A stretch of DNA of 64,000 nucleotides from Microcaecilia unicolor (taxonomy: Eukaryota). Numbering within the stretch: position 1 is the stretch's first letter; every line of letters starts with the position of its first letter. The stretch lies in NCBI RefSeq assembly GCF_901765095.1, contig NC_044034.1, forward strand, positions 62,690,339-62,754,338, written 5' to 3'. Below are positions 13,561-46,258 of the stretch, piece after piece. A model generated the notes under the pieces. It saw only the letters and a list, made by a program, of their open reading frames with translations, ran no database searches and was not told where the DNA came from. The translations under genes were made by a program, and so were the position numbers.

Positions 13561-14099
13561 GGATAGTGGTAATTGCATCTTAATAAATCATAAAATATTG
13601 CAAAAACAGGCAGTTAGATACTAAAGACTGCTCTAATGTGAATACCAAAGTATGATTAGAAATAAATAAAAATGTGACGGTATAAAAAAACATCATGAGT
13701 GATAATAGCTTAAACGAAAGATATGCTTTATGACAAGGCAGTGAAATATATAGGGTCCTGTTTACTAAGTTGCGCTGTAGGTTCCCTTTGCAGTTTTAGC
13801 ATGCGCTAATGCTAAAGACACCCTATATTTCTACATCTGTTCATTCTGGCTAGGTGGACGGTAGTACTTCTTATTACTATCCTTTTTCCCTTTACACATG
13901 GAATTTCAATCCATAGGGATTCCAAGATGTGTTTTGTTTCCTGCAGAATTTTCAATTTGATTCAATTTGATTCCTTAACATACAGAGCTACCCCTCCACC
14001 AATTCGATCCATTCTGTCACTACGTTGTAATTTGTACCCTGCTTATCCTCCTTCCACCTGATCTCAGAGATGCTTATTATATCTAATTTTTCATTTAGT

Positions 14100-14760
14100 G
14101 CAATATATTCTAACTCTCCCATCTTATTTCTTAGACTTCTGGCATTCGCATATAAACATTTAAAACTATGTTGTTACTATTTACATCTTGCTCGGCAGTT
14201 GTCAATATTAATTTGCAATCTTTTGTCTGCTTTTTATTTAAAGACACCTGGAGGCATATTTTCAAAGCACTTAGCCTTTCAAAGTTCCATAGAAACCTAT
14301 GGAACTTTGGAAGGCTAAGTGCTTTGAAAATATGCCTCCTGGTCTACTATGGTCTCTTTTGCAACCTCGCTATTGGGATACCCTATCTCCCCTGTTTTGG
14401 TGATATCTTTAAAAGATACTTTTTGAATGACCGTCAGCCTTCCCTCCCCCCCCCCCCCCCAAGGTTCTAGTTTACAAGCTGCTCTATCTCCTTTTTAAAT
14501 GACAATGCCAAAATCCTGGTTCCACCCTGGTTAAGGTGGAGCCCATCCTTCCGGAATAGGCTCCCCCTTCCCCTCAATGTTGCCCAGTTCCTTACAAATC
14601 TAAAACCCTTCTCCCTGCACCATTGTCTCATCCATGCATTGAAATTCCGGTGCTCTGCCTGTCTCTTGGGCCCTGCACACGGAATGGGTAGCAATTCGGA
14701 AACTACTACCATAGAGGTTCTGGGTTTGAGTTTTCTACCTAACAACCTAAATTTGGCTTC
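14100..14760 (-). mobile_element. LINE (CR1/L2-type) ORF2 C-terminal fragment
   Basis: ORF 14467-14745(-) reads ...NAWMRQWCREKGFRFVRNWATLRGRGSLFRKDGLHLNQGGTRILALSFKKEIEQ.LN, the conserved extreme C-terminus (DGLHLS..G...LA) of CR1-type ORF2. Confidence 0.55.
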
Positions 14761-15639
14761 CAGAATCTCCCTCTCACATTTTCATATGTCATTGGTACCC
14801 ATATTTACCAAGATGTCCGGCTCCTCCCCAGCACTATCTAAAATCCTATCTAGGTGACACATAAGGTCCAGCACCTTTGCACCAAGCAGGTAAGTGATCA
14901 GGTGATACGTCCATCAGCCTCCCAAATTTCTACATGCCTAATAATTGAATCACCAACAGCCGTTCTAACCCTTCCCTCCTGGGCAGAAGCTCTTGAGACA
15001 CATCCTCAGCGTGAGAGGATATTGCATCCTGTGGTGGGCTGGTCCTGGCTACAGGATTGCTTCCAGCTGTACTAGGGTGATGCTCTTCTTTTAGAAGACC
15101 TCCCTCCCCCAAGGAAGCACAGGGGCTGCCAGACTGGAGGTGGGACTTCTCTACAATGTCCCTGTAGGTCTCCTCTGTGTACCTTTCTGTCTTCCTTACC
15201 TCCTCCATGTCTGGTACTCTAGCCTTGAGAGAAATGTTGAAATGTGTTCTGTGCTCTGCTGTTCTTAAGAGTTAATACAAGAGAAATAATGTGGAATCTA
15301 AACATTTGTGATGAGAGGAATTTTCCCTGCTTGGCCAAATTTTGCCTAGTTTATGCGGTGTTTCCACATGATATATCCATAGCTGACAAATCCTGAAGCT
15401 ATATTTTGATAAGAGCAACATGTTGTAAAGTAGTTATTTTAACTTGAAAATCAGAGTTGTTATGTGGTGACAGGGAGATGCCAAAGCTCAACCCTGCTTG
15501 AAGTAGAAAATATAGTTTACATGCTTGTTGAGCTGCTTTGATATCCCATAATATAGTGAGTCAAACGAAAAGGATACAGGGGCATAGCATCATATTTATT
15601 TAAGGAAAATGAGGATAAAATCATTATCCTAGATCAGTG

Positions 15640-19243: not shown

Positions 19244-20089
19244 AAACTATTGTTACATGATGATATTTTTGAGGCCGAATCTGACAGTGATTGGCAAAGT
19301 GAATCAAAAGAAGCAGTAACGCCAAAGAAGAAGAAAAAGAAATCAAAAGATGAGGACGATAAAACCCAGGATGAGTTAAGGAAAAAAAAATCCAAATCTG
19401 GAAAAACAAAAGAACGATCCAGGTCAGACCACCAAGAGACCTCAGATAGCTTGGATTCAAGAATAAAGAAAAGAATTTCAGAAAGTAGAGAAGATTTAAA
19501 AGAGATCAAGAAGCAAAGAAAAGAAGAATCTAGAGAAGCCAAGAAATTGAAGAAAGAGATAAAAGATGCAAAGGTGAAACATAAAGAGGATTATAAAGAA
19601 AATAAGCAGCAAAAGGAAGTTCTTGACCTTCCGTTAGAGTCTGAGTCCAGTGTAGTCGATATGGTTTCTCAGTCACCTGACTCTGAGCAAATGGATTTCC
19701 TTAATGAGAGCACATTAGAGGACCAACAGAAAGCAGACACTAGCAAAGATAAGATGGAGCAAGAGACTATTGAGACAAACACCATTGCTGACGGGCAGCC
19801 GGATGGCATGGCAAGTTCAGAAGAGGACTCTGAGATCAAGATGAAGCGAAAGAAGAAAAAAATGAAAAAAATGGACAAAAAGGAAAGTAAAAGGTTGGAT
19901 ACTAAAGATTCCCAGTTTGAGAAGAAAAGTGCACACAAAAAGCAAAAACATATAGAGAAGGTGAAAGTTCCTGTAGTGCCAGAAAAGCCGCCACCGCCGC
20001 CGCCATCATCTGCACCTGCTCCAGTACAAAAGAGTTCAAAATTAAGCATTGATGAGAAGGGGCGTAAGCCCATGGAGTCCTTTGGGGAG
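19244..20089 (+). CDS. MPHOSPH8: MPHOSPH8 coding exon 3 (large K/E/S-rich low-complexity linker exon: ...DDIFEAESDSDWQSESKE...KKKKKKSK...ESESSVVD...PPPPPPSSAP...)
   Basis: Starts with the NDIFEANSDSDQQSE motif of human MPP8 and has the same lysine/glutamate/serine-rich composition and the conserved ESESSV motif. Acceptor ctttcatttttag|AAA. Donor GGGGAG|gtaaga. 846 nt, phase 0 to 0. Confidence 0.85.
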
Positions 20090-22739
20090 GTAAGAAATAC
20101 TAAATACATACAAAACCATCTTGGTTATGATAGATAATCTACTGGAGACTTTATTTGAAACACTGTATAGCTGTTGATATCTTTGAAAGGAAATGTGATG
20201 GATAAGAAATGGTGGTGGATAAGATATAGATATAATAGTACAAGTTAAAAGGTTATACGGTCTAATGGTGTGTACATTTTTCGCATTCTGCTGTCTAAAA
20301 AATATCATTCAAAATGCATTTTACTAAGTTTGTTTCACAGATCTACACATCAAACTCTATATTTGTTTCTCAAGGAGGTCGTGGAGTATCCTCTAGCCAG
20401 CCTGGTTTTCAAGACACCTACAACAAATGTGTGAGAGAGAGAGTTGCATACACTTCCTCTGTTACCTACCAGTCTATATATCATGTATATTTGTTGTGAA
20501 TGTCTTGAAAAACAGAATGACCAGGGGATTCTCCAGGAACTAGCTTGAGAGACATTAGTCTACATGTCCAACACAATTGTAAAAATTTTCAAAAAGTAAT
20601 TAATAAGAAACAGGGAAGTCCTGATTGCACATGTCTTCACACCTTTAACTCCAGTGTTTCTCAAAATTACCTTTATAAGGCTTATAATTTAAATAGTCAC
20701 ATGTGTCCAGTCACAGTATGTGAGCTGATTCAAGTACACCTGGATGAAGAATTAAGCTGTTTCTGTTGTGTGAAGTGAATCTGGAACAGGGGTAAAAACA
20801 TGGAGCTGCCAAAACAGTCTGGAATAGTTAATGGTACAAGTTCAGGGAAGGTTCTTAGAAAATTTCAGTTTGAATATTCTTTATGACATGGACAAGGTGT
20901 TTGATCAGATGTCATGGACCTCAATGGGTCAAGGAAAGTACTGAAAAAAGTTACTATGAGGCCTAAGATTACTTAAAAAGAAAATTAGAGAGCTGTGGCT
21001 GAAATAGGGGAAAATATTGACTGTTCAACAATTTCTCTACACCCATAGTCTGTGTGGGAAGGTGGCAAGAAGAAAACCACTGCCTAAGAAAAGCCATGTG
21101 ATTTGCCATGTAGCATTTGCAAAGAAGCAGTTGAAGTACGCTGCACACATGGAAGAGAGAGGGCTGTATTTGGTCTGATAACAACGAAGTGGAATATTTT
21201 GGTCTCAGTTCTATGATATGTGCAGTATGGGGAAAAACCCAAAGCAACACCCTTCCATCTTTTAAAAAAAGTGCATAAGGGCCTATGCGCATCCGATGTG
21301 CGCCAAATCTGCATTTCCACCCAGCTACCGTGTGCCCCGGGTGGTAATTCCGAATTTGTTGCTTGATGAAAACATGCGGTAGAAAATATTTTCTACCGCG
21401 GTGCGCCTACCCAGCAGTAAACGGCAGTTGGCGTTTGCTTCATGCTTGCCGTGTGGGTAGCATGTGAGATCTTACCGCTAGGTCATTGGGTGGCGGTAAG
21501 GTCTGAAGCTGAAAATGGATGCGCGCTGGTTTCAGTTTAAGCGCATATCGATTTTCCGGCCCCTTAAAAAAGGCCCTTTTTGCTAGACTCGGTAAAAAGT
21601 GGCCCAGCGTGCCCAAAAGATGCGCTTGCACTACTGCAGGCCATTCTTTACTGTGGTTTAGTAAAAGGACCCCTCTATTGAAGAGATGCTTTGCAACAGC
21701 AGGACCAGGAAGGTTTGTAAAGACTGAGGGAAAGATTCAAAGTACAATTCCAAAATAAAGCAAGCAATATAGGTACAAAATGTATTAAACACTGTAAAAC
21801 TATTTTTGTAAATCAATAAAATAATGCAATATAGGTAAAATTAGGCATTGAAAATATAATGGAAATCAGACTCAACATAGCCATAAGAACATATGACCAT
21901 ATTTACTTTTCTACCCGGATAGGAAACTGTAGGACCAATAATTCTAGTTTGTTTTGTTTTTCTTCTATAAGGGGCAGAAAACCTTTTAAACAGGTTGAGT
22001 TTCTCTGGGTTTTCAAGTGGCAATATTTTGGACTGATTTATCTTTTGTCTGTCAGAAATCATGTTATTGAGATTTTAGAAAAAAAATCTTAAAACTTAAA
22101 TTATTTCAAAAATTTGTATTGTGAAGCAATCTGTAATTTCTGATATGCCTAAGTACAATTTCAAATTTTCTCTGTTTATATTGCATTATTCATCATTTTG
22201 AATTTATTGCAGTTGTATGTTATTCCTTGAGTTTACTCCAGCTCTTGTTTTGTTAACTACTTAGATCTACAAGGTATTAGTAGTCTACAATACTTTTTGT
22301 TATCTTATGTTGAAAGCCTAGTACAGGGGAGGAAGTGACGTCACCAAGCAACATGGTCACTTGAAACGAGAGCTCCCGCTACCCCACGTTGATTTTCTGG
22401 CGGTATCGTAGTAAGCGTTCCACTTTACAGAACGATTCAGAAGATTCTGAGTTCTTTTGTTTAGGAAAAGCGGAAGAAGCATGAGTGCGCCCTTAAGCTT
22501 AGCTAAATATGCCTTTACCGGCGATTCGGCAGCGAACCATGTGGTGGGCACACTAGCAGCGGTCCCGAACCAGGCAAGTGGTTCGGTAGAAGAAGGGTCT
22601 CAAGACTTATTTCCTTCGGAGCATGAGCGGGAAGCCCCAGACTCTTTCAGGGCCTCAGAATTACGAGACTGGTTATTGGAGACTAGAGAAAAAGGCCCGT
22701 TTCTGACAGAAATGAAACGGGCGCTAGCAAGGTTTTCCT

Positions 22740-22860
22740 CGGAGTGTGTATGTTTGAGAGAGTGTGTGTGAGATTGACTGTGTGAGAGAGAGTGAATGTG
22801 CGAGTGTGTGTGTGTGACAGAGAGAGCGTGAGACTGGGTGCGAGTGTGTGTGTGAGAATC
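22740..22860. repeat. (GT)n/(GA)n-type compound microsatellite (gtgtgtgagagagtg...)
   Basis: Direct reading. Confidence 0.8.
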
Positions 22861-23170
22861 AGTGTGTGTGCCAGGGGCCCCTCCCTCCCAGTTCCAGGGT
22901 CCCCCCTCCATCCCTCCCTCCGTCCCTCCGAGTTCCAGGGTCATCCCCCTTCCCTCCCTCCAAGTTCCAGGGTCATCCCCCCTTCCTCCGAGTTCCAGGG
23001 TCCCTTCCAGTTTCAGGGTCCCCCCCCCCACCCTCCCTCAGAGTTTCAGGGTCACTACCCTCCCAGTTCCAGGGTCACTTTCCCTCCCAATTCCAGGGTC
23101 CCCATACCAGTTCAAGGGTCCCTCCCCCTCCCTCCAAGTTCCACGGTCCTGTCCACTCCCTCCCTCTGAG
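22860..23170. repeat. GC-rich tandem repeat (units of about 30-36 bp, ccctccctccgagttccagggtca(t)cccc) giving proline/serine-rich ORFs in several frames
   Basis: Repeated gagttccagggtc / ccctccctcc blocks read directly. The three overlapping + strand ORFs at 22792-23305 are frame variants of the same repeat. Confidence 0.8.
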
Positions 23171-23975: not shown

Positions 23976-25230
23976 TCGTCATTATGACCCGCCCTCGACG
24001 TCATCACATTTGACGTGTGGGCGGGGCAGACACTCATGGAGGAAAAGCGATCTCAGCACTTTTAGAACGTTGGGAAAGTGAGGCTTCATTAGAACGTTGG
24101 AGGTGCGTTTTATATAGAGAGATAAATAAATATAAAAATATATATATATATATAAATGCGAAGATAAGGATTCCCAAACCAAAAATAAAAAAACAAAATC
24201 ATTTACCAGCAATAATTATCTTTCCAAAGGTCTCAATGAGTATAATCCAATATACTCAATTTGAGAAAATGAAATGAAGTATTAAAACACCTGAGTTGAA
24301 AAATCAAACATGTACAGATGAACAATTTAAATACTTCCTAGTTTGTGAATCTGAAAATATAAATAGTACATACTGAATATTACATATATAGCAATAAACT
24401 CGGTCTTAATATACGCAATAAAAAGTCCATATAGGGCTAGATTCTATATATGGCACTGAAAAAAATTACGCTTAGGCATATTCTCTAAGGTACACCTAAA
24501 TTTTATAGAATTGGCTTAAATTTCCATGCAATATATAGAGTTATGCCGAGCACCTCTCCACGTGACCAAATTTAGTCATGGCCACATTTTACTTGGCGTA
24601 AATCCCGATGCCTAAATTAGGTATACAGTGGGTGTATTCTATAACAAGTCACATAGATTTTAGAAATGCCCATGCCCCACCAATGACTGCGCACCCTTTT
24701 CAACTGTACAACTTAGAATTTACGTGCACCATATTACAGAATACGCTTAGCGAGTTCTACGTGTAAATCTTAATTGCAGTTAGTGCTGATAATTGCTTGT
24801 AAATATCCAATTGACAGCACTGATTAGCTAGTTAACCAATAAGTTACACACGTTGTTATAGAATATGCTTCGATTTCCACGCAGATATTAAGGTGCAATG
24901 TATAGAGTACAGCAGATACTGCATAAAACATCTTTGTAAAAAATCTTAATTATTAAATCATCATTAATTATAAATTATGCTCTTGCAGATCAAATGTGAA
25001 GTGTACTATAGTGCATACGAAAACGAAGTTTGATTCGGAAATATACATACTTGGATGCTCTAACACCAAAGTGGATAGCATGGGAAGCCTTTGTTTTGGG
25101 AAAAAAAAAGGTGGGGGGAGGGTTAAAATAAGTTGCATAAAATTTCGACTGGGGATAAATGCTCTTATATAACTTCACATTTATGTGTTAAAAAAACATT
25201 GAGGAAAGGAATATAAGTGCATTTAGGGGT

Positions 25231-25368
25231 CCTTTTACTAAGGTGTGCCAACAGATTTAGCACGCGCTAAATAATAAGACACCTGTAAGAATATAATGGG
25301 CATCCTTTAGCACATGCTAATCAGCGTACGCTAAGTCCGTTAGCATACCTTAGTAGAAGGACCCCTTA
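25231..25368. mobile_element. Harbinger-like MITE of about 135 bp with about 17-bp TIRs (ggggtccttttactaag / cttagtagaaggacccc) and a TTA TSD
   Basis: Inverted termini read directly in the sequence. TTA sits immediately on both flanks (catTTA|gggg ... cccc|TTAgtt). Confidence 0.7.
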
Positions 25369-26399
25369 GTTCAGTGATTGCGTAACTCAGATTCATTCTG
25401 AAAAATGCCACGTATGTGTCCAGAGTCTCTTTGTGCCAAAAAATGGCATGTATAACAATTTATGCATTTGAAAATGAAACTAAAACTGGAATGAAATTAC
25501 AGATATGAAAAAATACATATTTTAGATTTTTAGAAAATTAGATAAAATTAAAAAAAATATTTGTGGTGTTACAATTAGAAGAATGCTTAAGTCACTAAAT
25601 TTTATTGGTGTGTGGATATACTCAAATTCAGTGAGGGGCACACTGAGCAGGAGTTGCATGGATGATGCCCCAAATGGTGCTACAGTTTCTTTAATGTTTT
25701 GATCTCTAGAATGGGCTATAATGAGTTTTAAGAAACATGACGGCAGGTAAGGGCCAAATATCCGATCCAGTCTGTCCATCCTCAGTAACCACTGTCTCTT
25801 CACATGCCTGTCCCATGCCTTCTTAAATTTAGAAGAAACCAAAAGAGAGGGTGAACAGCATACAAACCAATACAGAAACAAAAAGAAAGCAACACTGGGC
25901 CTTCAGGATTGAGATCATCAAAATCCTTCTTTATTATGAAATTGACCCGACACGGGCTGTGTTTCGGCACACAAGCGGCTGCATCAGGGGTCTGACATAA
26001 AAACATAAAGATCAAAAATTCATATAATCTGACTAGTGATACACATATAAAAACAAATAAAAAATTATTAGACATAAATACATAAGATCATTTAAAAAAA
26101 CAAAACAAAACCATAACAGGATAATAAGTACTTAAATAAAAACAATCAATATAAAAAAAATCCAGTCATACAAAAAGGACCAACATAATTATGCAAACAA
26201 AATATACATTCATGAGATAACCTTACCAAAAAGTTTTTGTGTCCTACAGGTCTGCTTGTGGACATAAAAGATATAGATAAACAATACAGGAAATGTTTTC
26301 TAAGGAAATGAGAAAAGGGAAGGAAGGCAACAGCATGTTAATAGGTGGGCAAACCTGTACAACCAATAGATACGGTTGTATTAAAAGAATTGAAAATAT

Positions 26400-28200
26400 A
26401 AAAAATGATTGGGATTATAATAAACTGTAATAAAACAACCTGATTAAATACTGGTGACCAACATGATGAAAACCATGTAAGGTAGCAGAGCATAGTTTAC
26501 TCACCACTGAGGTCAGACTAACAGGTCTGTAATTCCCAACCTCCTCCTTTCTTTCTGCTCTTGTGCAGCTGAACCACATCTGGTTTTTTTTTCTCCAGTC
26601 CTCTGGAACCACTCCAGACTCTAAAGCATTGAAGAGGTTAGACAATAGAGCTGCCAGAATTTCTCCAAGTTCCTTGAGTACCCTCGGTTGTATCCCATCA
26701 GACCCCATCACTTTGTCTATTTTTAGCTTAACTAGCTCCTCACGAACGCAGACTTCTGAGAGTTGGTCCTGGTCTACCATATATCTATCCCTATTAGCAT
26801 TTGTTTTCTGCAGTCCTTTCCCAGCCTTTCATCTGTGAACACAGAACACAAATATTTAAGTTCAGCTTTATCCTTATCAGCTTCTACATATTCCCCCCCT
26901 TTGCCCTTGAGCCTCACAATGCCATTTTGGCACTTCCTTCTATCTCTTACATATTAAAAAAATGTTTTGTACCCCAATTTTAACTTATTGGTTGTCTTTT
27001 CTTCCATTTGCATCTTCACTTTCCTGACAGCTTTTTCAGCTACTCTTAGCTTTTCTAGGTATTTTTGTCTGTCTTCCTCTTTCTGAGTTGCCTTGTAATT
27101 TATGAAGGCTAATCTCTTTTTTTCCCTTACCTTTTCAGGTACTACGTTTGAGAACCAAAGTGGCCTTCTTTTCCTCTTACTTTTATGTACTTTTTTAACG
27201 TGAAGGTTTGTCCCCTTTAAAATAGCTCCTTTCAGACTTGCTCACTGATGTTCTACTTCCTTCAGCTGTTCGCATCCAACAAACTACTTTGAGATATTCC
27301 CCTATCTTGTCAAAGTTAATTCTTTTGAAGTCTAGGACCTTCAGTCTTGAATAAGCCCACTCTTCCTGTAATATTGGACTACACCATTTGGTGATCACTA
27401 GATGCCAATTAATCTCCCACCTTAACATCAGAAACACTCTCCCTGTTTGTAAGCACTAGATGTAGAATAGCTCCATCCCGCATGGGTTCTGTTACCAACT
27501 GCTGGAACAGTTCTTCCTGTAGAGAATCCAAGATCCCCTTTCTTCTAGTCAACCCTGCAGCAGGGATGCCCCAATCGACGTCCGGCATAGTAAAATCACC
27601 TGAATCCAAGATCCCCTTTCTTCTAGACAACCCTGCAGCAGGGATGCCCCAATCGACGTCCGGCATAGTAAAATCACCTGAATCCAAGATCCCCTTTCTT
27701 CTAGACAACCCTGCAGCAGGGATGCCCCAATCGACGTCCGGCATAGTAAAATCACCTGAATCCAAGATCCCCTTTCTTCTAGACAACCCTGCAGCAGGGA
27801 TGCCCCAATCGACGTCTGGCATAGTAAAATCACCTGAATCCAAGATCCCCTTTCTTCTAGACAACCCTGCAGCAGGGATGCCCCAATCGACGTCTGGCAT
27901 AGTAAAATCATCTGAATCCAAGATCCCCTTTCTTCTAGACAACCCTGCAGCAGGGATGCCCCAATCGACATCCAGCATAGTAAAATCACCTGAATCCAAG
28001 ATCCCCTTTCTTCTAGACAACCCTGCAGCAGGGATGCCCCAATTGACGTCCGGCATAGTAAAATCACCTATCAGTAGTGCGTCCCCTTTCCTAGCTATCT
28101 TGTGAATGTTTTCAATTAAATCTCTGTCCATTTCTTCTGACTGTGAAGGAGGCCTGTATATCACACCATTGTAAATACATTTTCCATTCCCTCTTTCCAG
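26400..28200 (-). mobile_element. CR1-like LINE 5' portion: endonuclease domain (28164-27409) and RT N-terminus (26780-26415)
   Basis: The EN signature reads IYRPPSQSEEMDRDLIENIHKIARKGDALLIGDF(T/N)MPDVNW ... LQEELFQQLVTEPMRDGAILHLVLTNRE. The RT N-terminus reads GSDGIQPRVLKELGEILAALLSNLFN.SLESGVVPEDWRK.N......R.E.VGNYRPVSLTSVVSK. Both match CR1/L2 ORF2 conserved blocks. Confidence 0.7.
27523..28070. repeat. 78-bp minisatellite, about 7 near-identical units (ccaagatcccctttcttctagacaaccctgcagcagggatgccccaatcgacgtccggcatagtaaaatcacctgaat)
   Basis: The period was measured directly: the unit start tgaatccaag recurs at 27601, 27679 and onward. 78 is a multiple of 3, so all three frames on both strands stay open across the array. 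That is why the ORF track shows 207/251/172-aa repetitive ORFs. Confidence 0.9.
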
Positions 28201-31200
28201 GTTAACCCACTGTGCTTATTCCTTACCCCGTATGCCCTGCAATTCTTTCACTTTAATATTATTATTAACATATAATGCACTCCACCCTTTTTTCCTACCA
28301 TGTCCTTCCTGTATAGATTATAGCCAGGTATAACTGTATCCCAGTCATGGTTCTCCATGAACCACTTCTCCGTGACAGCCACTAAATCTAAGTCTGCTTC
28401 TACCATTACAGCCTCTAGGTCTAGAAATTAGTTTCCCATACTATGGGCATTGGTATACAAAGCTCTCCAGATATTACTCTTTTTCCCCATTTCTATAAAG
28501 GCATTTGATGTCTTACATTCCTGAGGGTTATTAATGACTTTGGGGCTTTTCTCTCTCATCCATCAATTTTAGTTTAAATTCCTCTTTAGTACATTACCCA
28601 GTCTACTGAAGAGACTTTGTCCCTTCTTTGATAGATGGACACCATCTCTGCTCAGTAGCTCTTGAAAAATCATCCCATGGTGTAGGAAACTGAAGCGCTC
28701 ACGGTAGTACCATCTGCACAGCCACACATTCAGTTCTAGGATGCGAGCTGCCCTCATTTGGCCTTTACCCTCAACAGAAAGGATCAATGAGAACACCACC
28801 TGTACACCTGACTGCTTCACCCTCTGTCCCAGAGCCATGAAGGGAAAGGGAATGGGACTTGATATGTTGCCTTTCTGTGGTTTTTGCAACTACATTAAAA
28901 GCAGTTTACATAGTATATACATGAAGTCATATTCGATATGTTCCGTAGGATACCTAGCAGCATCATTTGTGCCAAAATGGATGAGCAGCATAGGATTGTG
29001 GTCTGTAGGCTTGATGAGTCTCGGCAGACAGTACACCTCCCTGGACATCATGCCTGGTCGGCAGATGGGTGCCTCTTAACTTATCTGTGGTTCCCTAATA
29101 TGTGCCAGTGTTTTCTAATGATTTTTTAAAATCATTTGATAAGCTAGAGAATTTGAGTGCATACAAGGTCTGGCTGAGGATGCTCTGAAGCCATCTTGGC
29201 AATGTGGATATAGATTTAGTTACTCAGACAAGATGTATGTATTTTTCCATATCTGTAATTTCATTCCAGTTTGTTTCATTTCCAAGTGTGGAAATTGTTA
29301 TACACACTATTTTTTTGGTGCACATTTTCCTCTCACATAGCTAAGTTTCACTAGCTTCCTGTTCAAGAAAGAATTTTATATAAATCGACTTGTCTGATGT
29401 TTCAGGTCGTTCATTGAGCTGCCTCAGAATTGTTGATAAATTTGATTGTTGCACCATTAACTCGATTTTTAGCTTGATTGCAGAGTTCTTTTATTCTTTG
29501 TTCTCTTACTTTTAAAGGTGTTTGGGGGTTTTTTTTTTTTTTTTTTAGATAGCAAGTACTATGTTTTCATCTCTGGTAATTCCTTTTTTGGAACTATTTT
29601 TTGTCTGGTGTTAGAACTGAAACAAATTATTATGTTTCTCAAAGAAAGCTGAAAACTTGTTTGATAGATTCTGATTTAAAAAAAATACTGTGTTAAAAAA
29701 AAGTGTTAATGTATTGTAGCTGTTCCTAATTTGTAAACCACATTAGACCCTAATTCAGGGGATATAACGGTTGATATTTTCAGATACACTGGACTCGTAT
29801 GTGGCATTTTTCTGATTGCATCTGAATTAACACATCGCTGCAATTTTTATTCCTTTTCCTAATGTGTGTTATACATAAACATGAAGTTATATAAGAGCAT
29901 TTTACCCCAGTAGAAATCTTATGTAACTTATTTTATCCACCAGCCCCCCCTTTTTTCCCCCAAAAAACAAATGATTCTCACTCTATACATTTTGGTGCTA
30001 GAGCGCCTAAGTAAGTACGCCTTCAGTTTCTTTTGCAAGTTTTATTGCAGATACCATTCAAGTCTAAATTTATTAGTTTTGATAGTATGTGTTTTATGCA
30101 GATGTGACATCTGTTTTTGTGCGCTGCTTCTCTGCACAGTATATTACAGTCCACATTTGATCTGCAGGAGCATAATGTATAACTGATTATTTTATAATTA
30201 AGATATTTTACAACAAAGAAGTAGTTTATGGACGTTTTATTGTGTATGAGATTATTGCTTATATGTAAGTGTGTGTGCTATTTATATTTTCAGGTTCACA
30301 AAATAGGAAGTATTTTAATTTTCTGTTCATCCGAATGTTTTAATACTTCATTTTTTCCAGTTGGATATATTGGATTACACTCATTGAAACCTTTGGAAAG
30401 ATAATTACAGCTGGTAAATGATTTTTTTTGTTGTTGTTGTCATCAGCAATCCTTATCTTTACATTTTTTTTAAATGTAGAACTTAGTACTTTCCAAGTTA
30501 TAATATAGCAGTGTTTCATTTAAGACTATTACGTATTCATCACACTATTTCTTGGTCTGATGAGTCTATAAACTTGTACTTTTGTATAACTTTTGTCTTT
30601 TAAAACATTGATGTTTTTGTTATGTTTTATTTTTGCATATGTTTTATTGTTCTTTTTATAGACCCCTGAAGCAGGAATTTGCTGAAATAGGACCTGTCGG
30701 GTGTCTTCATAAAAATTGATTAACATACTGATTCCTGAGGCCTATGTGCTTTTTCTTCATTATATGGTTCTGCTGCACCATTGAGTCCCTCTCCTTGGCT
30801 TGGCTTATTTTAAAAATTATCTATAGCCTCAGTAAAAGTTGTACATGTTATTAAAATAATTTGGGAAAGTACTACTACTACTACTATTTAGCATTTCTAT
30901 AGCGCTACAAGGCATACGCAGCGCTGAAAGCATATGGAAAGCAGGGAGGAATACACATGGAAATATGTTTCTTGGAATGATTTCCTCCATGTCTGCATTT
31001 GTCTCTGGGATTGATGCAGAAAGGCCCACAGTATAGCCATGCGTGGATGGCTGAGTGCACGGTATATTGTTTTTGTTTTTTTTTTTTACAATTTTTTTTA
31101 ACATGCTTAATTTCTCTGTAATCCTTGGTCAAATTCTGTGTCTTCTCACTGTTTTTTCGACTACACCAAATGCAGTTCTGTTATGTTTTTGGAGCGTCCT

Positions 31201-32555: not shown

Positions 32556-33467
32556 TTTTATATTTCAACTGTTTTTATTGATGATTCAACATTATAAACA
32601 TTTTAACATTGCCAATACTTCTATTATTGAGCATTATAAGTAATACAGCATATTAACTTGTATACAGCAATAAATTCCATCATCAATAGTTTTATGCATC
32701 TTCCCCTGGTCTCTTTGCCTACCCTCCCAAACATGCTCATTAACAGCCAAACGTACATTTAAGGAGGGGGGTGTTTTGTTAAATATACATCACAGTCATC
32801 TTTTATATTCCCCCCTCCTTCTCCCCTTCCTTCTTCTCTCCCCACCCTCTCCCCCCTGCTATTCATTAATAATTAAATTGTGCTTATGAGTTCAGGTAAG
32901 TGTATCATTATTCTATAATATTATCAAAGCTTATTGAGTACAAGACTCCGACCTCTCTGCGTTAAGGTATCCAACATAGGCCCCCAAACTTTAAGGAAGC
33001 ATTTTTTCCCACGACAGGAGCCTTTTGCATTCCTTGCTTCCCATGTCATTAAAAGATGCACCTGATTTCGCCATTGCCAGTAATCTGGGGGTTTATCCGA
33101 AGTCCAACATTGCAAAATACATTTTTTGGCTACCAAACATAATTTGCGACTTAACAATATTTCATCTGCCGTAAGGCCACTGAATGCTCTTGGGCAATCC
33201 AATATTAATTGCACCGAAGTGCCCACTATAGTACTTGAAATGATTGAATTCATAAATGCCAGTATCTTTTCCCAAAAAAGCTGTATTTTTGTGCATTCCC
33301 AAAATGCATGATAGAACGAATTTTCCTCCAATGTGCATTTCATACAGATTGGTGTGTCAATCCCTCCTACTTTATAGAACTGGCGTTGTGTGAAGTATGC
33401 TCTATGTATTATTCTAAATGCACATTCTCTATAGTTTGCTCCATTAATCAGTTTAGGGATGTTCCGT
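32556..33467 (-). mobile_element. L1-like LINE 3' fragment (ORF2 C-terminal CxxC region plus A/T-rich 3' end) nested inside the CR1 copy. A roughly 14-bp target-site duplication (atctaacccctttt) flanks it.
   Basis: Translation ...YRECAFRIIHRAYFTQRQFYKVGGIDTPICMKCTLEENSFYHAFWECTKIQLFWEKI... is typical of the vertebrate L1 ORF2 C-terminus. The duplicated motif atctaacccc(t)tttt is present at both junctions (32545-32560 and 33473-33488). Confidence 0.7.
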
Positions 33468-33925
33468 ATATCTAACCCCTTTTTAAACTCCGTCAAGCTA
33501 ACCGCCCGTACCACGTTCTCCGGCAATGAATTCCAGAGTCTAATTACACGTTGGGTGAAGAAAAATTTTCTCCGATTCGTTTTAAATTTACCACACTGTA
33601 GCTTCAACTCATGCCCTCTAGTCCTAGTATTTTTGGATAGCGTGAACAGTCGCTTCACATCCACCCGATCCATTCCACTCATTATTTTATACACTTCTAT
33701 CATATCTCCCCTCAGCCGTCTCTTCTCCAAGCTGAAAAGCCCTAGCCTTCTCAGCCTCTCTTCATAGGAAAGTCGTCCCATCCCCACTATCATTTTCGTC
33801 GCCCTTCGCTGTACCTTTTCCAATTCTACTATATCTTTTTTGAGATACGGAGACCAGTACTGAACACAATACTCCAGGTGCGGTCGCACCATGGAGCGAT
33901 ACACCTTTGACTTATACACCAAGCA
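33468..33925 (-). mobile_element. CR1-like LINE 3' fragment, the 5' part of a copy split by a nested insertion
   Basis: Same family as 4067-4620: the ORF segment reads MVYKSKVYRSMVRPHLEYCVQYWSPYLKKDIVELEKVQRRATKMIVGMGRLSYEERLRRLGLFSLEKRRLRGD.... The copy resumes at 32336-32555. Confidence 0.8.
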
Positions 33926-34264
33926 AGTTGTTATTTTTCAACTGTTTTTATTATGAAATAAATGCATTACAAAGACAAACTTGTAGATACACATGCAGTC
34001 TGCACAACCCAGGAAAGGTTCAAAATGCCCTGTATCCCCAGAAAATTTGACCGTAATATTCCACACTCCCATAAACATAGCTATAACGCTTGCTCCTGAG
34101 TGGAGACATACTTGATTAACAACCCAAGATAAACCCCCGTCCTAGGTGCTTCCCCCCCCTAAAGAAGCAGCAACTCAATGACAGCCCCATCTAAATGCCC
34201 CCCCCCCTCCAAAACACTGAAATCCATTCGACATCCAATCCCAACCCCCCCCCGAGCCCCCTCC

Positions 34265-34940
34265 CTACTCAAGGTGCGTACCCTCCTTATAATCAGAACC
34301 ATCCAGAATGCTCACAGTCCATTGAGAATGAGACTCCTGCCCCGTTGAGATAGTGTGTCCAAATAGGTAACCCAAATTTTCAAAAAACGGGTTTCTATGA
34401 AACTTTGGAAGGCTAAGTGCTTTGAAAATATGCCTCTTTGCCTCCCAGGACAGCAGCTGTTGCAAAAGGTTGTGCCAATGCCAATATCCAGGTGTGTTGT
34501 CTCAGGCCCAGGACCGCAATACACATTTCCTCACCAACAAACACAATTTGCGAAAAATAAGGTGCCCTCTACCGATGACCCCCTAAAAGACCCCGGGCTG
34601 TCAAGCACCATTTGAAAAGGAGTGCCCGCAATCCTCCGGGAGAACAAGAAAGATAAGTGTTCTACCACCCAGCGCCAAAAGCGGCGAACTACCCCACAGG
34701 GCGAAAAGGCATGAAAAAAGGTATTATCTAACAGTTTGCACTTTGGACAAAGAGGAAACCCAGTGCCCCCAGCCTTAAACAATTGAACCTGTGCAAAATA
34801 AGCTCTGTGTATTACTCGAAAAGCACATTCCCCATAGCTAGCACCGCTGACAAGGCTTGGAATGCCTTTGATGTGTGCCTTTGACTTCCCAGAGAGAATT
34901 AAATGAGTTGCTCCATCAGAGAGTGAGGAAATCACAATTA
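34265..34940 (-). mobile_element. L1-like LINE ORF2 C-terminal fragment
   Basis: ...ASYGECAFRVIHRAYFAQVQLFKAGGTGFPLCPKCKLLDNTFFHAFSPCGVVRRFWRWVVEHLS... shows the L1 ORF2 C-terminal Cys motif. Confidence 0.6.
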
Positions 34941-35387
34941 TACTATCGATATCAATTTTTTAGACATGGAAATAAGGCAGGGAGCATGCAGCATGCTAGC
35001 CAGACTAATCAAAGGGAGGTAAGGGACAACCCGCATAATACAACTCCAAGACGCAAGAGGCCATGGGATTCAGAAAGATGCAGATATCGCATCCCATTTG
35101 CAGGATTATTACAAACTATTGTATCAGGAGCCCACAGATGGGATGTTGGATAGTGATTTATATTTAGACAGTCTGACTTTACCGACGATTACGGAGGCAC
35201 AGAGAGAATTTCTGAATGCGCCTATCACGCAATGCAACAAAATAAGCTTCAGAAGACGCCTGGGCTGGACGGTTATGGGGTGGAATTCTATAAATTGCTT
35301 TATGAACAAGTAAAATCTCCCCTGGTGAATGTCTTTAATATGCCAAATTATCATTTCAAGCCACACATTCAGTTATACATTTCCATA

Positions 35388-35975
35388 TACTACTACTACT
35401 ACTACTATTTAGCATTTCTATAGCGCTACAAGGCATACACAGCGCTGCACAAACATAGAAGAAAGACAGTTCCTGCTCAAAGAGCTTACAATCTAATAGA
35501 CAAAAAATAAATAAAGTAAGCAAATCAAATCAATTAATGTGAACGGGAAGGAAGAGAGGAGGGTAGGTGGAGGCGCGTGGTTACAAGTGGTTACGAGTCA
35601 AAAGCAATGTTAAAGAGGTGGGCTTTCAGTCTAGATTTAAAGGTGGCCAAGGATGGGGCAAGACGTAGGGGCTCAGGAAGTTTATTCCAGGCGTAGGGTG
35701 CAGCGAGACAGAAGGCGCGAAGTCTGGAGTTGGCAGTAGTGGAGAAGGGAACAGATAAGAAGGATTTATCCATGGAGCGGAGTGCACGGGAAGGGGTGTA
35801 GGGAAGGACGAGTGTGCAGAGATACTGGGGAGCAGCAGAGTGAATACATTTATAGGTTAGTAGAAGAAGTTTGAATAGGATGCGAAAACGGATAGGGAGC
35901 CAGTGAAGGGTCTTGAGGAGAGGGGTAGTATGAGTAAAGCGACCCCTCCGCCTCCCACTAGCCCCCCCCAAACTT
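35388..35975 (-). mobile_element. L2-like LINE 3' fragment ending in a (TAG/GTA)n microsatellite plus gtagcgctatagaaatgctaaata tail (tail at 35388-35430)
   Basis: ORF 35591-35971(-) reads LKTLHWLPIRFRILFKLLLLTYKCIHSAAPQYLCTLVLPYTPSRALRS.D..LSVP.....NSRLRAFCLAAPYAWNKLPEPLR, an L2 ORF2 C-terminal signature. The same tail recurs at 30872-30960, 43893-43965, 54683-54810 and 58328-58440. Confidence 0.75.
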
Positions 35976-36049
35976 CCCTAACCTCCTCCTCCCCCCTTCC
36001 CATCCCCCAAACAACTCTATTATATTTAATACATCTAAATCGTGTGTTG

Positions 36050-37260
36050 TGTGTCAGTTAATGATTCTGCTTCTCGCTCTGGGTTGCAACGTGTCCCAAA
36101 ACCTCTCCCAGGTCTTCTGTAAAGATTTCCCTTCCTCTGTGTCCAATTCTGCCACACTGCATCGCTCCATTTTCAGCAGCTCTATCATGTGTGATCTCCA
36201 CATCCCCAAAGTGGGCGCCTCCTGTTCTCTCCAGCATATCAAAATAGACTGCTTCCCCACCATTACTGCTCTTTGCAAAAACCGGTTGAACCCTGATAGG
36301 GTTGCCCCTGTGTTGTGGTATTCCTCAAATAGGAACAGAGGGTGCCGCCGTACTCTACGGCCCCATTGAGTATAGATTTCTCTCAGTACCTGGGTCCAGA
36401 AAAACAGTATGCGCTCACAAGTCCAAAACGTGGCCCAGAGTGGCCGGGTCTCTTCCACACTTGGGGCAAGCCCCTGACTCTCCAAACCCAGCCTTATACG
36501 CTCTTGCTGGAGAAATGTGGAGGCGAAGTGCAAACCTGTACTGCAGTTCCCAGTACTTGGGAAAGGGGGAACTCTTTTGAATTATCTGAAGATACTTCCA
36601 AAACAGATCTCTTGTCACCTCTGTTCCCAATTCCAGTGTCCACACTCTCACTCTGCCCTTGCAATCCAGATCTGTTGTTGTGTCCAACAAAAAACGATGA
36701 TGAAAACGCAGGGGAATCACATTATGCGCTCCCAGTGTCAGAGCTGAGTTAAGTTTCTTGCATATCCTCACATAAATGCGTCCACTCTAGGGCCGAGATA
36801 TAATGGTGTGCCTGCATGTATGCCAAATAATCCCCTGGCAGCACCGCATATTCCTCTTGAATGTCTGCAAAAGAACGAACTTTGCCTTCTTCATTTATCA
36901 GATGATACAGGTAGCGGACTCCCTGCTTTCGCCAGCGAGCGAATGCAGCTGTGGTGGACCCCGCAGGGAAGTCTGGGTTATTATGCAATGCTATGAAGGG
37001 CGTCACACTCGCCGAGAAACCATGTCTTCTACATAGCCACCGCCAGGCTGCTGTAGCTGAATATACCAGCGGATTTTTAGAAATCCCTGGCACTGACATT
37101 GCTCTCGGCAAGTGCAGCAACCAGCTGAGATGTGCCATTGGGGACATAGCAGACTCTATTACAGTCGCTGAAAAGTCTTGTTTCCCGATTAACCAATCCC
37201 TAACGTGCTGCAGGGCACGCAACACTGTTAAATACCTTATATTTAGAAGTCCCATCCCTC
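36050..37260 (-). mobile_element. L1-like LINE ORF2 C-terminal fragment
   Basis: The minus-strand ORFs 36054-36533, 36415-36771 and 36749-37255 contain ...GACPKCGRDPATLGHVL... and ...RYLYHLINEEGKVRSFADIQEEY..., conserved blocks of the vertebrate L1 ORF2 tail. Frameshifts are present. Confidence 0.6.
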
Positions 37261-37289
37261 CCTGGGCCCTAGGCTTCTCCAGAATCTTT

Positions 37290-39600
37290 TAATGTGGCAC
37301 AAATGATTGTTTTGTTAAAACCGGGGAGGAACCCAGAAGATCCAGGGTCTTACCGCCCCATCTCTGTTAAATTATACGCAAAAATTCTGGCAAATAGATT
37401 GTCACACGTCCTCCCAGACTTGATATACCACCCCCAGGTGGGTTTTGTTAAAGGAAGATCAGTGGCTAAAAATATTTGAGCAATTTTGGCATCATTGGAG
37501 GTGGTGGAACGGTCGAAGGCACAGTCTCTTTTAAGTTTTAACAATTTTTATTGATGATTCAACAATATTTACATAACCGATAATTTAACCGGGAAAGAGT
37601 ACATCACACTTGGGATACATTCAGCCATATCTTGTATCATCAATGATTTTATCCTTTTCTCCCACCCCCCCACCCCTCCCAATCTTATCATCATATCCAA
37701 CAGGCTTGCGTGTACATTGTAACATGAATAACAAAAATAGCACTGAATCTTCCGATTACGCTTCGCAAGCAATATTTATATTGACTTCTTCCAAATTCCT
37801 TCTCTTCCCCTTCCCCTCCCCCTGGCACAGTCTCTTTTAATTAGTTGATGCAGTGAAAGCCTTCGATCGGGTCACCTGGCAATTCATGTTTGCTGTGCTG
37901 AGGAGGGTAGGCATATAGGGATTTTTTAGTGAGGCGGTAAGAGTGCTGTAGGCTGACCCAAGAGCATTTGTCTAGGCGAATGGAGAACGATCTGCAGTGT
38001 TTCCGTCACCACTGCTTTTCGTGCTTTCATTAGATCCCCTTATCAGAGAAATTAGCTCCCACCCACATATTTCGGGAGTGACTGTCGGGAACTCCATTTT
38101 TAAAATCTCAGCGTTAACAGATGATTTGTTGCTTCATATTAGTAATCCTTGCACATCTTTGGCGGCAGTTCTGGAGTTTTTTCACGAATATGGAGATTTT
38201 GAGGGATTTAAATTAAATCTCTCCAAGTCGCTAGCACTAGCCTCTATGCTGCAGGTAAAGCAGGAATAGGAAGTGGAATTTCCACTTAAACGAGTCTTTT
38301 AGATATTTAGGCATTCAACTTACAATAAAAGTGTCGTCCCTATTTCATTTAAACATCTCACGTTTATTAGAACACACTGTAGAATGTCTCACCAGATGGA
38401 GACCTCTACCACTGTCCCTACATGGACAGATACATTTATTTCAAATGGTGGAATTCCCAAGATGGCTTTTTGTTCTACAAACGTTACCACTGTGCATTTT
38501 TAGAAAAGATTTAACCGTGTTATATAAACATCTACGCAAATTTATCTGGGGGGGAGGCAAATCCAGAATGCCCTTTCACCTGATGTTGGGGTCGTGGAGG
38601 GAGGGAGGCCTGGGGGTCCCTAATTTAAGACGTTATAATCAAGCCTGTTTGCTTCGGCACCTAAGAGACTGGTTTTTAGATAGACAGGACTATACTCCAA
38701 GGGACCTAGAAATGGCCTTCTTTCATCCATGTCACTTATATTACTTATTGAAAGCCCCCAGGAAGGAGATCCCGGCAGGCATGAATATGAGTATGTTGTT
38801 AAGGCCTTTGAGGGAAGTTTGGAAAGATTTGACTAAGTACTGGGGAATTTCACAGGTGGCCTCTAATCTATTGCCCATATGGGGCAACCCAAGCTTTCTT
38901 CCGGGCTCAGACAATCCGCTGTTTCGAAAATGGGAGGCTATGGGTATCATGAGATTGGAGCATGTCTTAGATGCAAAGGGTGCTTTGTTGTCCCTGGGAG
39001 CTTTAGGTATTGGGATCAACTGCAGCAAAATGTATGCCTATATCCAACTGCCCATTATGTTCGTATGATTAGTAGTGAGTTATTGGGGGCTGCGCATAGC
39101 AGACGTATGAGAGCCTTTTTTCATTCTATTCCGGTAGAGCGTTTGTCGGTCTCTGGATTATATAAAGCACTAACACTTTTGGCTCCTCTCAAAAATAAGG
39201 GATCAATTAGAGATCGGTGGGCTTTGGACATGGGATGCACGGATCTGACATTAGATTTTGATCAGCTTTCGGCAGCCATCCCAGCTCTAGCTGTTAATGC
39301 GGACTTACGTACATGTCAGTATTGTATATTGCACAGAGCATATCTCAGGAAGGCTCAAATTTTCAATATGGGGGGAGTGGTGGAGCCTCTGTGTTCCAAA
39401 TGTAGAACTCAAGTGGGGACTTTTTTTCACTCTCTCTGGGAATGCCCGGTGGTCCAAAAATTTGGGGGGGGGGGGGGGGATATATTTCATTTTCTGGGAA
39501 AGCTGTTGAGGGTCCCAATCCTGTGTGTCTCGCTTGGAGTATTACTAGATAAATATAGACTTTTTGCCCTGCGGGGTAGAGGTGCTCAACTCTTGGTTAG
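37290..39600 (+). mobile_element. L1-like LINE RT fragment with frameshifts
   Basis: Three + strand ORFs carry L1-type RT blocks. 37294-37479 reads ...YRPISVKLYAKILANRLSHVLPDLIYHPQVGFVKGRS. 37997-38269 reads ...ISALTDDLLL.... 38331-39068 reads ..FIWGGGKSRMPFHLMLGSWREGGLGVPNLRRYNQACLLRHL. Confidence 0.65.
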
Positions 39601-39984
39601 AAAGGCCTGTCTCCTGGGCAAACAACTTATTTTATTTATTTATTTATTTATTGTTTGTACTTGTATCCCACATTTTCCCACCTCTTTGCGGGCTCAGTGT
39701 GGCTTACAATAAGATATGAATAATGAGAATACAGTTGTTACAAATTGGTTATGGGTTACATTGTACAAGTTATGCGAGATAATCGAATTATCATTAGGAA
39801 TATCACAATGGGACATCAACAGGGAGAGTTTGGGAGGAGACAATGGGAAGCTTAAGGGCAGTCTTAAGACACATAGGCACATGGTGTACATATTCCTGTA
39901 AGTATATGTATGAGTAATGTGGAATTAGGGGGATGAGAGATCATAAGTGGATGTGTGATGCATTTATGTAAGTGAGTGTGGGCT

Positions 39985-44666: not shown

Positions 44667-46258
<1,592 letters not shown>

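What the first reader, a model, noticed from the sequence alone, without database searches (positions are those of the whole stretch)
27523..28070. In-frame 78-bp minisatellite expansion inside a CR1-like endonuclease coding region
Seven tandem copies of a 78-bp unit (26 codons) duplicate the EN-domain segment GDF(T)MPDVDWGIPAAGLSRRKGILDS, which corresponds to the conserved GDFN.PD..W block. The period is a multiple of three, so the ORF on the sense strand (251 aa, 27409-28164) stays open through the array. Two other frames and the opposite strand are also open, which produced striking but spurious repetitive ORFs in the track. This could be a replication-slippage expansion within one TE copy or a family-specific variant.
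Basis: seen in the sequence. Interest (0 to 1): 0.55.

Follow-up and report, generated by a model that had tools for sequence, protein, structure and literature searches.

The report
Tandem duplication inside a dead CR1 retrotransposon
A 78-base piece of the endonuclease gene of a long-dead, truncated CR1-type jumping gene has been copied head-to-tail seven times at this one spot; it is an ordinary transposon-derived minisatellite, and its long open reading frames are a by-product, not a gene.

Summary
At 27524-28069 there are exactly 7.0 head-to-tail copies of a 78-bp unit (97% match, no indels). On the minus strand each unit encodes GDFTMPDVDWGIPAAGLSRRKGILDS, the GDFN..PD..W catalytic block of an APE-type LINE endonuclease.

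The host element is a CR1-group LINE with an esterase-type ORF1, EN and the start of RT. It is dead: 5 stops and at least 4 frameshifts in 447 flanking codons, with the RT core and 3' end missing.

Three internal tests favour local expansion after the copy died:
- All seven units carry Thr where all 17 aligned relatives have the Asn that aligns to L1 EN N147.
- The units differ from their consensus by 1.3%, against roughly 7-9% decay estimated for the flanks.
- The unit differences are mostly CpG transitions, and one is shared by adjacent units, which indicates stepwise turnover in the germline.

No relative found in two large protein searches carries more than one unit. However, this family's own host genome is not in those collections, so a family-level array is unlikely but not directly excluded.

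Three of six frames being open is unremarkable. TE-derived minisatellites, including ones from LINE ORF2, are well documented. Low interest.

The parts
27524..28069 (-). Minisatellite: 7 x 78-bp units, starting at 27524, 27602, 27680, 27758, 27836, 27914 and 27992. Each encodes the 26-aa EN block GDFTMPDVDWGIPAAGLSRRKGILDS on the minus strand.
   Evidence: TRF score 1043, 97% match, 0 indels. Unit table: 7 variant cells, 5 of them at CpG.
27409..28164 (-). 251-aa open frame: 32 codons of EN upstream of the array, 182 array codons and 37 codons downstream. It is a remnant of ORF2, not a gene. It starts with GTG only under the bacterial code and is bounded by stops in a decayed TE.
27367..28490 (-). 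ORF2 endonuclease (APE-type) region of the CR1-group copy, from the probable ORF2 start (MGKKSNIWRALYTNAHSMGN...) to ...LASSDHQMV*SNIT. It contains stops and one frameshift (around 28300).
   Evidence: tblastn with P0001 aa 1-193; frame stitching; a profile of relatives hits human L1 ORF2p 8sxt at E 4e-45, with GDFN aligned to L1 D145/N147
26478..27362 (-). ORF2 linker and the N-terminal approach to RT (up to ...GNYRPVSLTSVVSKL, equivalent to P0001 aa 197-489). Homology ends at about 26478. The RT core and 3' end are absent.
28572..29101 (-). ORF1, an esterase (SGNH/GDSL-like) domain with the HFGTND and DGVHLS blocks. Decayed (stop, frameshift).
   Evidence: phmmer vs PDB: 4c1b 'ORF1-encoded protein' E 4.3e-8; weak Pfam Lipase_GDSL_2; self tblastn coordinates
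24154..25519 (+). Left arm of a diverged inverted duplication that brackets the CR1 fragment. Context only; a relation to the array is not shown.
29236..30466 (-). Right arm of the same inverted duplication (73-87% identity to the left arm, with about 467 extra bp at 29316-29781). Its inner end lies about 135 bp upstream of the ORF1 esterase region.

Best explanation
This is a locus-specific, TE-derived minisatellite. A CR1-group LINE (esterase ORF1, APE-type EN, RT) came to lie here, lost its coding capacity and lost its RT core and 3' end. After that, a 78-bp segment of its endonuclease coding sequence was duplicated in tandem and grew stepwise to seven copies. The segment spans the strand carrying the residues that align to L1 EN D145/N147 plus the following 20-odd residues. 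Growth was by the usual minisatellite processes: replication slippage, unequal sister-chromatid or homologue exchange, or gene conversion. It has no coding function. The sense frame stays open because the progenitor unit was coding sequence without a stop and the copies are nearly identical. The other open frames are chance properties of the unit multiplied seven-fold.

Shown: the array, its position in EN, the dead and truncated state of the host copy, the shared Asn-to-Thr change, the much lower divergence among units than in the flanks, and the CpG-type mutation pattern. Inferred: that other copies of the family have one unit, which molecular process made the first duplication, and the absolute age.
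For: (1) The array and frame are as described.
(2) Domain identity: PF14529 is above threshold. The de-duplicated translation finds CR1-type ORF2 proteins of an anuran (46% identity, 95% coverage), turtles and birds. The profile aligns to human L1 ORF2p, with the unit's GDFT on L1 G144-D145-F146-N147.
(3) The host copy is dead. There are 5 in-path stops and at least 4 frameshifts in 447 codons, and homology to the 832-aa relative stops at residue 489.
(4) All 7 units have Thr (ACT) where 17/17 aligned relatives have Asn, so the substitution predates the expansion.
(5) Relative age: stop density implies about 7-9% substitutions per site in the flanks (95% lower bound 2.6%). That predicts 37-51 unit-versus-consensus differences in 546 bp (at least 14 at the lower bound). 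Only 7 are seen (P about 1e-9 to 1e-14, or 0.03 at the lower bound).
(6) The mutation pattern is biological. Five of 7 variant cells are C>T/G>A at the unit's three CpGs (P 5e-5 to 5e-4), and one variant is shared by adjacent units 4 and 5, which indicates continued stepwise turnover.
(7) None of the 120 closest relatives has more than one GDF..PD..W block. In an exhaustive HMMER scan of 1.84e9 representatives, true EN relatives match only the two array flanks. The multi-stretch hits inspected (P0121, P0125, P0128) are unrelated repeat proteins, P0121 being AHNAK-like.
[quoted passage not shown] ORF2-derived tandem repeats are known (PMC9659126).
Against: No other genomic copy of this exact CR1 family could be examined. 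The best relative is only 46-51% identical. None of the ten window ORFs I looked up by exact sequence, including the three array ORFs, is in the 15-billion-protein collection. The absence of array-bearing relatives therefore says little about this family.

The flank-age estimate rests on only 5 stop codons and assumes the copy was intact on arrival. In-situ homogenisation of an older array would give the same low unit divergence.

The unit is richer in CpG (o/e 0.64) than the flanks (0.20). This fits either chance survival of a CpG cluster before amplification or an earlier origin than the divergence suggests.

There is no microhomology, flanking direct repeat or partial terminal unit to explain the first duplication.
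Confidence: 0.82

Rival explanations
1. Family-level feature: the array was already present in the master, or in a trans-mobilised non-autonomous derivative, and was inherited by this copy at insertion. This would resemble the in-frame LPR repeats of mouse L1 ORF1 or the VNTR of SVA.
For: It cannot be excluded directly, because no second copy of this family is available. LINE families with in-frame repeat blocks do exist (mouse L1 LPR 42/66-bp units, PMC3600994). CR1-group elements can carry family-specific repeat arrays (PMC13343379).
Against: Six extra 26-aa blocks would be inserted into the catalytic core of EN. No unit retains the Asn that aligns to L1 N147, so an autonomous master is implausible. 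The units are about 5-7 times less diverged than the flanks, so even an inherited array would need in-situ homogenisation. The CR1-group arrays described so far lie near the 5' UTR with 100-500-bp subunits, not in EN. None of the 62 EN-containing relatives among the 120 best hits has two blocks.
Confidence: 0.08
2. Assembly artefact: the array, or its copy number, was created or mis-sized by the assembler.
For: Near-identical tandem units are a classic source of copy-number error. Units 2 and 3 are identical. No reads are available.
Against: The units carry distinct substitutions of the methyl-CpG transition type, one of them shared by neighbouring units. There are no indels and exactly integral copies. 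This pattern looks like germline mutation, not consensus noise. At 546 bp the array is well within a single long read (inference).
Confidence: 0.05
3. Exapted coding sequence: the 251-aa repeat ORF (or the 207-aa plus-strand ORF) is a real exon or gene encoding a repeat protein.
For: Long open frames on both strands. The period is divisible by three.
Against: The ORF is bounded by stops inside a decayed TE and has no ATG at its start (GTG under table 11 only). Three of six open frames is reached by 24% of shuffled units. The unit variants in the sense frame are 4 nonsynonymous cells (S>T, G>D, P>L, D>N) and 3 synonymous cells, my own reading of the codons, so there is no sign of purifying selection. 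No homologous repeat protein exists: the inspected multi-stretch hits (P0121, P0125, P0128) are unrelated repeat proteins. No Pfam family other than the EN remnant is significant.
Confidence: 0.02

Closest known systems
TE-derived minisatellites (Ahmed & Liang 2012, PMC3389668)
   Same: A tandem array whose unit is an internal piece of a transposable element, sitting within that element and expanded by local duplication. Like 94% of the human cases, it has neither flanking direct repeats nor a truncated terminal unit.
   Different: The host is a non-mammalian CR1-group LINE rather than Alu, L1 or an LTR element. Seven copies is more than the typical two.
Tandem repeats/satellites containing LINE ORF2 sequence: chicken HinfI repeat with partial CR1 ORF2 (Li & Leung 2006), Phodopus PROsat and Phoca Pvc20 (L1 ORF2), as tabulated in PMC9659126
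   Same: Coding sequence of a LINE ORF2, in one case a CR1, used as raw material for a tandem repeat.
   Different: Those are long-monomer, multi-locus or high-copy satellites. Here there is a single 546-bp array with a short 78-bp unit inside the parent copy, and no evidence of dispersal.
Length polymorphism region (LPR) of mouse L1 ORF1 (PMC3600994)
   Same: In-frame tandem repeats (42 or 66 bp, 2-3 units) inside a LINE ORF.
   Different: The LPR is a family-level feature of active elements. It lies in a coiled coil that tolerates length change and is inherited by retrotransposition. Here the repeat sits in the catalytic core of EN in a dead copy, and every unit lacks the conserved Asn.
5'-UTR repeating subunits of CR1-group elements (PMC13343379)
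   Same: Tandem arrays associated with CR1-group LINEs.
   Different: Those are 100-500-bp non-coding subunits near the 5' UTR, described for some ORF1(-) elements, with species-specific lengths and sequences. This array is in ORF2 EN of an ORF1(+) copy.

Membership tests
Minisatellite (tandem repeat, unit >10 and <100 bp) | Head-to-tail copies of a 10-100-bp unit, well above chance | tested here: met
   78 bp x 7.0 copies, 97% match, TRF score 1043; definition as in PMC3389668
TE-derived tandem repeat | The unit is homologous to, and positioned inside, a transposable element | tested here: met
   The unit aligns without gaps to the single GDFN block of CR1-type ORF2 proteins, and the flanks continue the same EN domain
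CR1-group LINE (CR1/L2 lineages) | ORF2 with an N-terminal APE-type endonuclease | tested here: met
   PF14529 at 33.5 bits against GA 27.4; profile vs L1 ORF2p E 4e-45 with the catalytic block aligned
CR1-group LINE (CR1/L2 lineages) | Reverse transcriptase domain downstream of EN | tested here: inconclusive
   Only the pre-RT region up to ...NYRPVSLTSVVSKL (P0001 aa 489 of 832) is present. The RT core is missing from this copy, and Pfam RVT_1 is not detected.
CR1-group LINE (CR1/L2 lineages) | Esterase-type ORF1, the only ORF1 type found in vertebrate CR1 and L2 (PMC13343379) | tested here: met
   ORF1 remnant 29101-28572 matches PDB 4c1b 'ORF1-encoded protein' at E 4.3e-8; literature
Canonical CR1 (as opposed to L2, Rex1, etc.) | RT-based phylogenetic placement within CR1 | not tested
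   No phylogeny was made and the RT core is absent. The closest proteins are anuran, turtle and bird ORF2s, which I take to be CR1 from general knowledge, since the database names do not say so. In amphibians L2s are predominantly ORF1(-), which mildly favours CR1.
Canonical CR1 | Characteristic 3' UTR end (hairpin plus short microsatellite, no poly-A) | not testable with these tools
   The 3' end of this copy is missing. A glance at another CR1 3' fragment (52701 onward) was not conclusive.
Family-level in-frame LINE repeat (LPR-like) | The array is present in the family consensus or in many copies | not testable with these tools
   No other copy of this family in the window or in any collection reachable here
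Family-level in-frame LINE repeat (LPR-like) | The repeat is compatible with protein function in active elements | tested here: not met
   All units lack the Asn aligned to L1 N147. The array would insert 156 aa into the EN core. The copy has stops and frameshifts.

The most novel reading that the evidence does not exclude
The array might not be a one-off. It could be the visible seed, or one member, of a CR1-endonuclease-derived minisatellite/satellite family in this genome, or of a non-autonomous CR1 derivative that carries the array and is mobilised in trans. The unusual 5'-half-only CR1 fragment framed by 1.3-kb inverted arms would then be part of a composite repeat unit.
Probability: 0.05. 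Interest if true: 0.35.

Novelty: new member of a known kind. Interest (0 to 1): 0.1.

Why it matters
It matters little biologically. It is one more example of decaying transposon sequence giving rise to a minisatellite. It may be useful as a polymorphic VNTR marker in the source species. It is also a caution for annotation: the 251-, 207- and 172-aa ORFs are artefacts, and repeat-bearing queries draw spurious hits to unrelated repeat proteins such as AHNAK-like ones. The one point of methodological interest is that a shared catalytic-residue loss and the unit-versus-flank divergence contrast allow an in-situ, post-mortem expansion to be inferred from a single copy.

Tried and rejected
1. A protein search with the raw 7-unit ORF returned nothing significant. 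The word index was saturated by the repeat, so I replaced it with a de-duplicated stitched query.
2. The exhaustive HMMER search gave a striking top hit with 28 matched stretches (P0121). Inspection showed an AHNAK-like giant repeat protein, and P0125 and P0128 are likewise unrelated. I rejected these as repeat-versus-repeat artefacts.
3. Exact-sequence look-ups of ten window ORFs, including intact young TE proteins, were all absent from the collection. The host genome could not be identified or mined.
4. An exact 24-mer scan of metagenome contigs for the unit core found 0 hits.
5. Hairpin-driven slippage: the unit contains a small palindrome (CCCTGCAGCAGGG), but its single-strand folding energy is ordinary (z -0.9 and -0.6), so this has no support.
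6. Microhomology, flanking direct repeats or a partial terminal unit as the origin of the first duplication: none present.
7. phmmer of the single degraded EN sequence against the PDB failed. A profile of relatives was needed.
8. Inverted arms as transposon TIRs: no recognisable termini or target-site duplication. Left unexplained.
9. Rfam found no RNA family anywhere in the window.
10. The third large protein search was deliberately not spent on host identification, because it would not bear on the finding.

Full report
**Observation.** The sequence at 27524-28069 is a perfect-register tandem array. Tandem Repeats Finder gives period 78, 7.0 copies, 97% matches, no indels and score 1043. This is by far the strongest array in the window; the next scores 268. 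Laying the units out one by one shows exactly seven, with no partial unit and no matching base beyond either end. The unit occurs nowhere else in the 64 kb. On the minus strand the array lies inside the 251-aa ORF 27409..28164, which reads GDFTMPDV(D/N)WGIPAAGL(S/T)RRKGILDS seven times. A second minus-strand frame (172 aa) and one plus-strand frame (207 aa) are also open.

**What the array sits in.** Three-frame translation of the minus strand shows a LINE.
- An ORF1 remnant lies at 29101-28572. It has the HFGTND and DGVHLS blocks and matches the solved 'ORF1-encoded protein' esterase 4c1b at E 4.3e-8.
- ORF2 follows, starting near 28490 (MGKKSNIWRALYTNAHSMGN...).
- The 251-aa ORF passes Pfam's threshold for PF14529 Exo_endo_phos_2 (33.5 vs 27.4 bits).
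- A stitched translation with the array collapsed to one unit finds ORF2 proteins of the anuran Leptobrachium leishanense (P0001, 46% identity over 95% of the query), then turtles and birds at about 33%.
- A profile of the query with 17 of these relatives matches human LINE-1 ORF2p structures at E 4e-45.

According to a 2026 survey, an esterase ORF1 is the only ORF1 type found in vertebrate CR1 and L2 lineages, and amphibian L2s mostly lack ORF1 (PMC13343379). 'CR1-group LINE, probably canonical CR1' is therefore well supported, although I made no RT phylogeny. The host is probably an amphibian, but this is only a guess from the best hit.

**State of the copy.** Along the homology-guided reading path outside the array there are 5 stop codons and at least 4 frameshifts in 447 codons. 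Homology to the 832-aa relative ends at residue 489 (...NYRPVSLTSVVSKL, about 26478). No RT core or 3' end follows on that strand. So the copy is dead. Unusually for a LINE, it retains its 5' half and lacks its 3' half. It cannot be a simple target-primed insertion as it stands.

**Where the unit falls in the enzyme.** The unit aligns one-to-one without gaps to GDFNLPDVNWKTKTAGCTRSTNILNS of P0001. In the 18-sequence alignment G, D, F and W of this block are invariant. The Asn of GDFN is present in all 17 relatives, and only the window copy has Thr. In the profile-to-structure alignment the block lies on L1 ORF2p G144-D145-F146-N147, counting from the printed alignment. From my own knowledge of L1 and APE1 endonucleases, D145 and N147 belong to the catalytic site. 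The unit thus spans that strand plus the roughly 20 residues after it. Six extra copies would add 156 residues inside the catalytic core.

**Local expansion or family feature?** Direct comparison with other family copies was impossible.
- The window holds no second copy of this region.
- The closest database proteins are only 46-51% identical.
- None of the ten window ORFs looked up by exact sequence is in the 15-billion-protein collection.
- A 24-mer of the unit is absent from metagenome contigs.

What the databases do show is that none of the 120 best relatives has more than one GDF..PD..W block (62 have one). In an exhaustive HMMER scan of 1.84 billion representatives, genuine EN relatives match only the two flanks of the array. 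The multi-stretch hits I inspected (P0121, P0125, P0128) are unrelated repeat proteins, P0121 being AHNAK-like. Because the host genome is evidently not represented, this is weak evidence for the family in question.

**Three internal tests are more telling.**
1. All seven units carry the same Asn-to-Thr change (codon ACT). The progenitor unit was therefore already mutated at a near-invariant, presumably catalytic, position before it was amplified.
2. Stop-codon density in the flanks implies about 7-9% substitutions per site since the ORF was intact (95% lower bound 2.6%). At that rate an equally old array would show 37-51 unit-versus-consensus differences, or at least 14 at the lower bound. 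Only 7 are seen (1.3%; P about 1e-9 to 1e-14, or 0.03 at the lower bound). The zero indels and zero sense-frame stops in the array are consistent with this but not significant on their own.
3. Five of the 7 variant cells are C>T/G>A changes at the unit's three CpGs (binomial P 5e-5 to 5e-4). One of them (position 60 C>T) is shared by adjacent units 4 and 5. That is the signature of real germline decay with continued stepwise duplication or conversion, not assembler noise.

Together these indicate that the copies were generated, or last homogenised, at this locus long after the element died.

**What is not special.**
- A period divisible by three has a one-in-three prior.
- The sense frame is open because the progenitor was coding sequence and the copies are nearly identical.
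- Three open frames of six is reached by 24% of composition-matched shuffled units.
- The unit variants in the sense frame are 4 nonsynonymous cells and 3 synonymous cells, my reading of the codons. That shows no purifying selection.
- The unit has no unusual hairpin potential (z -0.9 and -0.6).
- There is no microhomology, flanking direct repeat or truncated terminal unit at the array edges. The first duplication is thus unexplained, as for 94% of TE-derived tandem repeats in human (PMC3389668).

**Comparison with what is known.**
- At least 23% of human minisatellites/satellites derive from TEs and grow by local duplication of the repeat unit (PMC3389668).
- Tandem repeats built from LINE ORF2 sequence are documented: the chicken HinfI repeat containing partial CR1 ORF2, Phodopus PROsat and Phoca Pvc20 (PMC9659126).
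- Family-level in-frame repeats exist in mouse L1 ORF1 (the LPR, with 42/66-bp units; PMC3600994). They lie in a length-tolerant coiled coil of active elements.
- The CR1-group arrays described so far are 100-500-bp subunits near the 5' UTR.

The present array works like the first two classes and fails the functional-compatibility test for the third.

**One loose end bearing on timing.** The unit keeps three CpGs (o/e 0.64) while the flanks are strongly depleted (o/e 0.20; window 0.39). Either a CpG cluster survived by chance and was then amplified, or the array is older than its divergence suggests and is kept homogeneous by conversion. Either way, turnover at this locus is required.

**Verdict.** This is a real, well-described but ordinary feature: a locus-specific minisatellite born from the endonuclease-coding part of a dead, 3'-truncated CR1-group LINE. 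Confidence is about 0.8. The main rival, an inherited family or subfamily array, sits at about 0.08 and can be tested in minutes with the source genome. Novelty: a new member of a known kind. Interest: 0.1.

Noticed in passing
window 24154-25519 (+) and 29236-30466 (-): The CR1 fragment lies in the 3.7-kb spacer of a diverged, collinear inverted duplication with arms of about 1.3 kb (73-87% identity). The right arm has about 467 extra bp (29316-29781). The arms are non-coding, AT-rich and have no other copy in the window apart from a 55-bp match at 57812-57866. There are no clear termini or TSDs. Their nature (long TIRs, two repeat copies, or a local inverted duplication) is unknown.
   Followed up: partly
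window 26478-29101 (-): The CR1 copy keeps ORF1, EN and the start of RT but lacks the RT core and 3' end. This is the opposite of the usual 5'-truncated LINE copy. The 958 bp between the break and the left inverted arm (25520-26477) match nothing else in the window.
   Followed up: partly
window 39985-43437 (-): An uninterrupted 1150-aa ORF with Exo_endo_phos and RVT_1 domains (Pfam). It is only about 23% identical to the frog CR1 protein. It looks like an intact, possibly recently active LINE of another lineage, with a long N/T/H-rich N-terminal extension.
   Followed up: partly
window 43572-43721: A 49-bp x 3.1 tandem array (95% match) lies 135-284 bp upstream of the start of the intact LINE ORF. 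It is reminiscent of the 5'-UTR repeating subunits reported for some CR1-group elements (PMC13343379), though the unit is shorter.
   Followed up: no
window 44991-46043 (+): An intact 350-aa Tc1/Sleeping-Beauty-type transposase ORF (HTH_SB, HTH_Tnp_Tc3_2 and DDE_3, all above threshold).
   Followed up: partly
window 3095-3409, 4464-4631, 33659-33904, 52162-52482, 57045-57508, 58933-59259: Several RT-derived and mostly 3'-terminal CR1-like fragments (40-63% aa identity to P0001), the usual 5'-truncated copies. 52180-52701 is an open 173-aa C-terminal piece. None overlaps the EN segment, so none could be used to count units.
   Followed up: partly
window 13902-14853 (-) and 9191-9277 (-): Further weak esterase-ORF1 and EN matches (22-59% identity) suggest at least one more decayed ORF1(+) LINE.
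   Followed up: no
window 19250-20137 (+): A 295-aa K/E/S-rich ORF with a Pro-rich C-terminal part and no Pfam match. It could be a large host exon or chance low-complexity sequence. It was not searched.
   Followed up: no
window 22756-23163: A cluster of overlapping, imperfect C-rich tandem repeats (periods 24-41 bp, 75-90% match) that generates spurious Pro/Ser/Gly-rich ORFs on both strands.
   Followed up: no
window 32924-39712: Several 130-330-aa ORFs with no Pfam hit for the two tested (32924-33922 and 38879-39712). They share a ...HRAY(F/L)...C..C...FH.(F/L)WEC... motif, which by eye resembles the Cys-rich C-terminus of L1/Tx1-type ORF2. One is fused in frame to a CR1 C-terminal fragment (32924-33922).
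   Followed up: no
window 27524-28069 vs flanks 26478-29100: CpG observed/expected is 0.64 in the repeat unit, 0.20 in the flanking CR1 sequence and 0.39 for the whole window. The amplified segment happens to be the most CpG-rich piece of the copy.
   Followed up: partly
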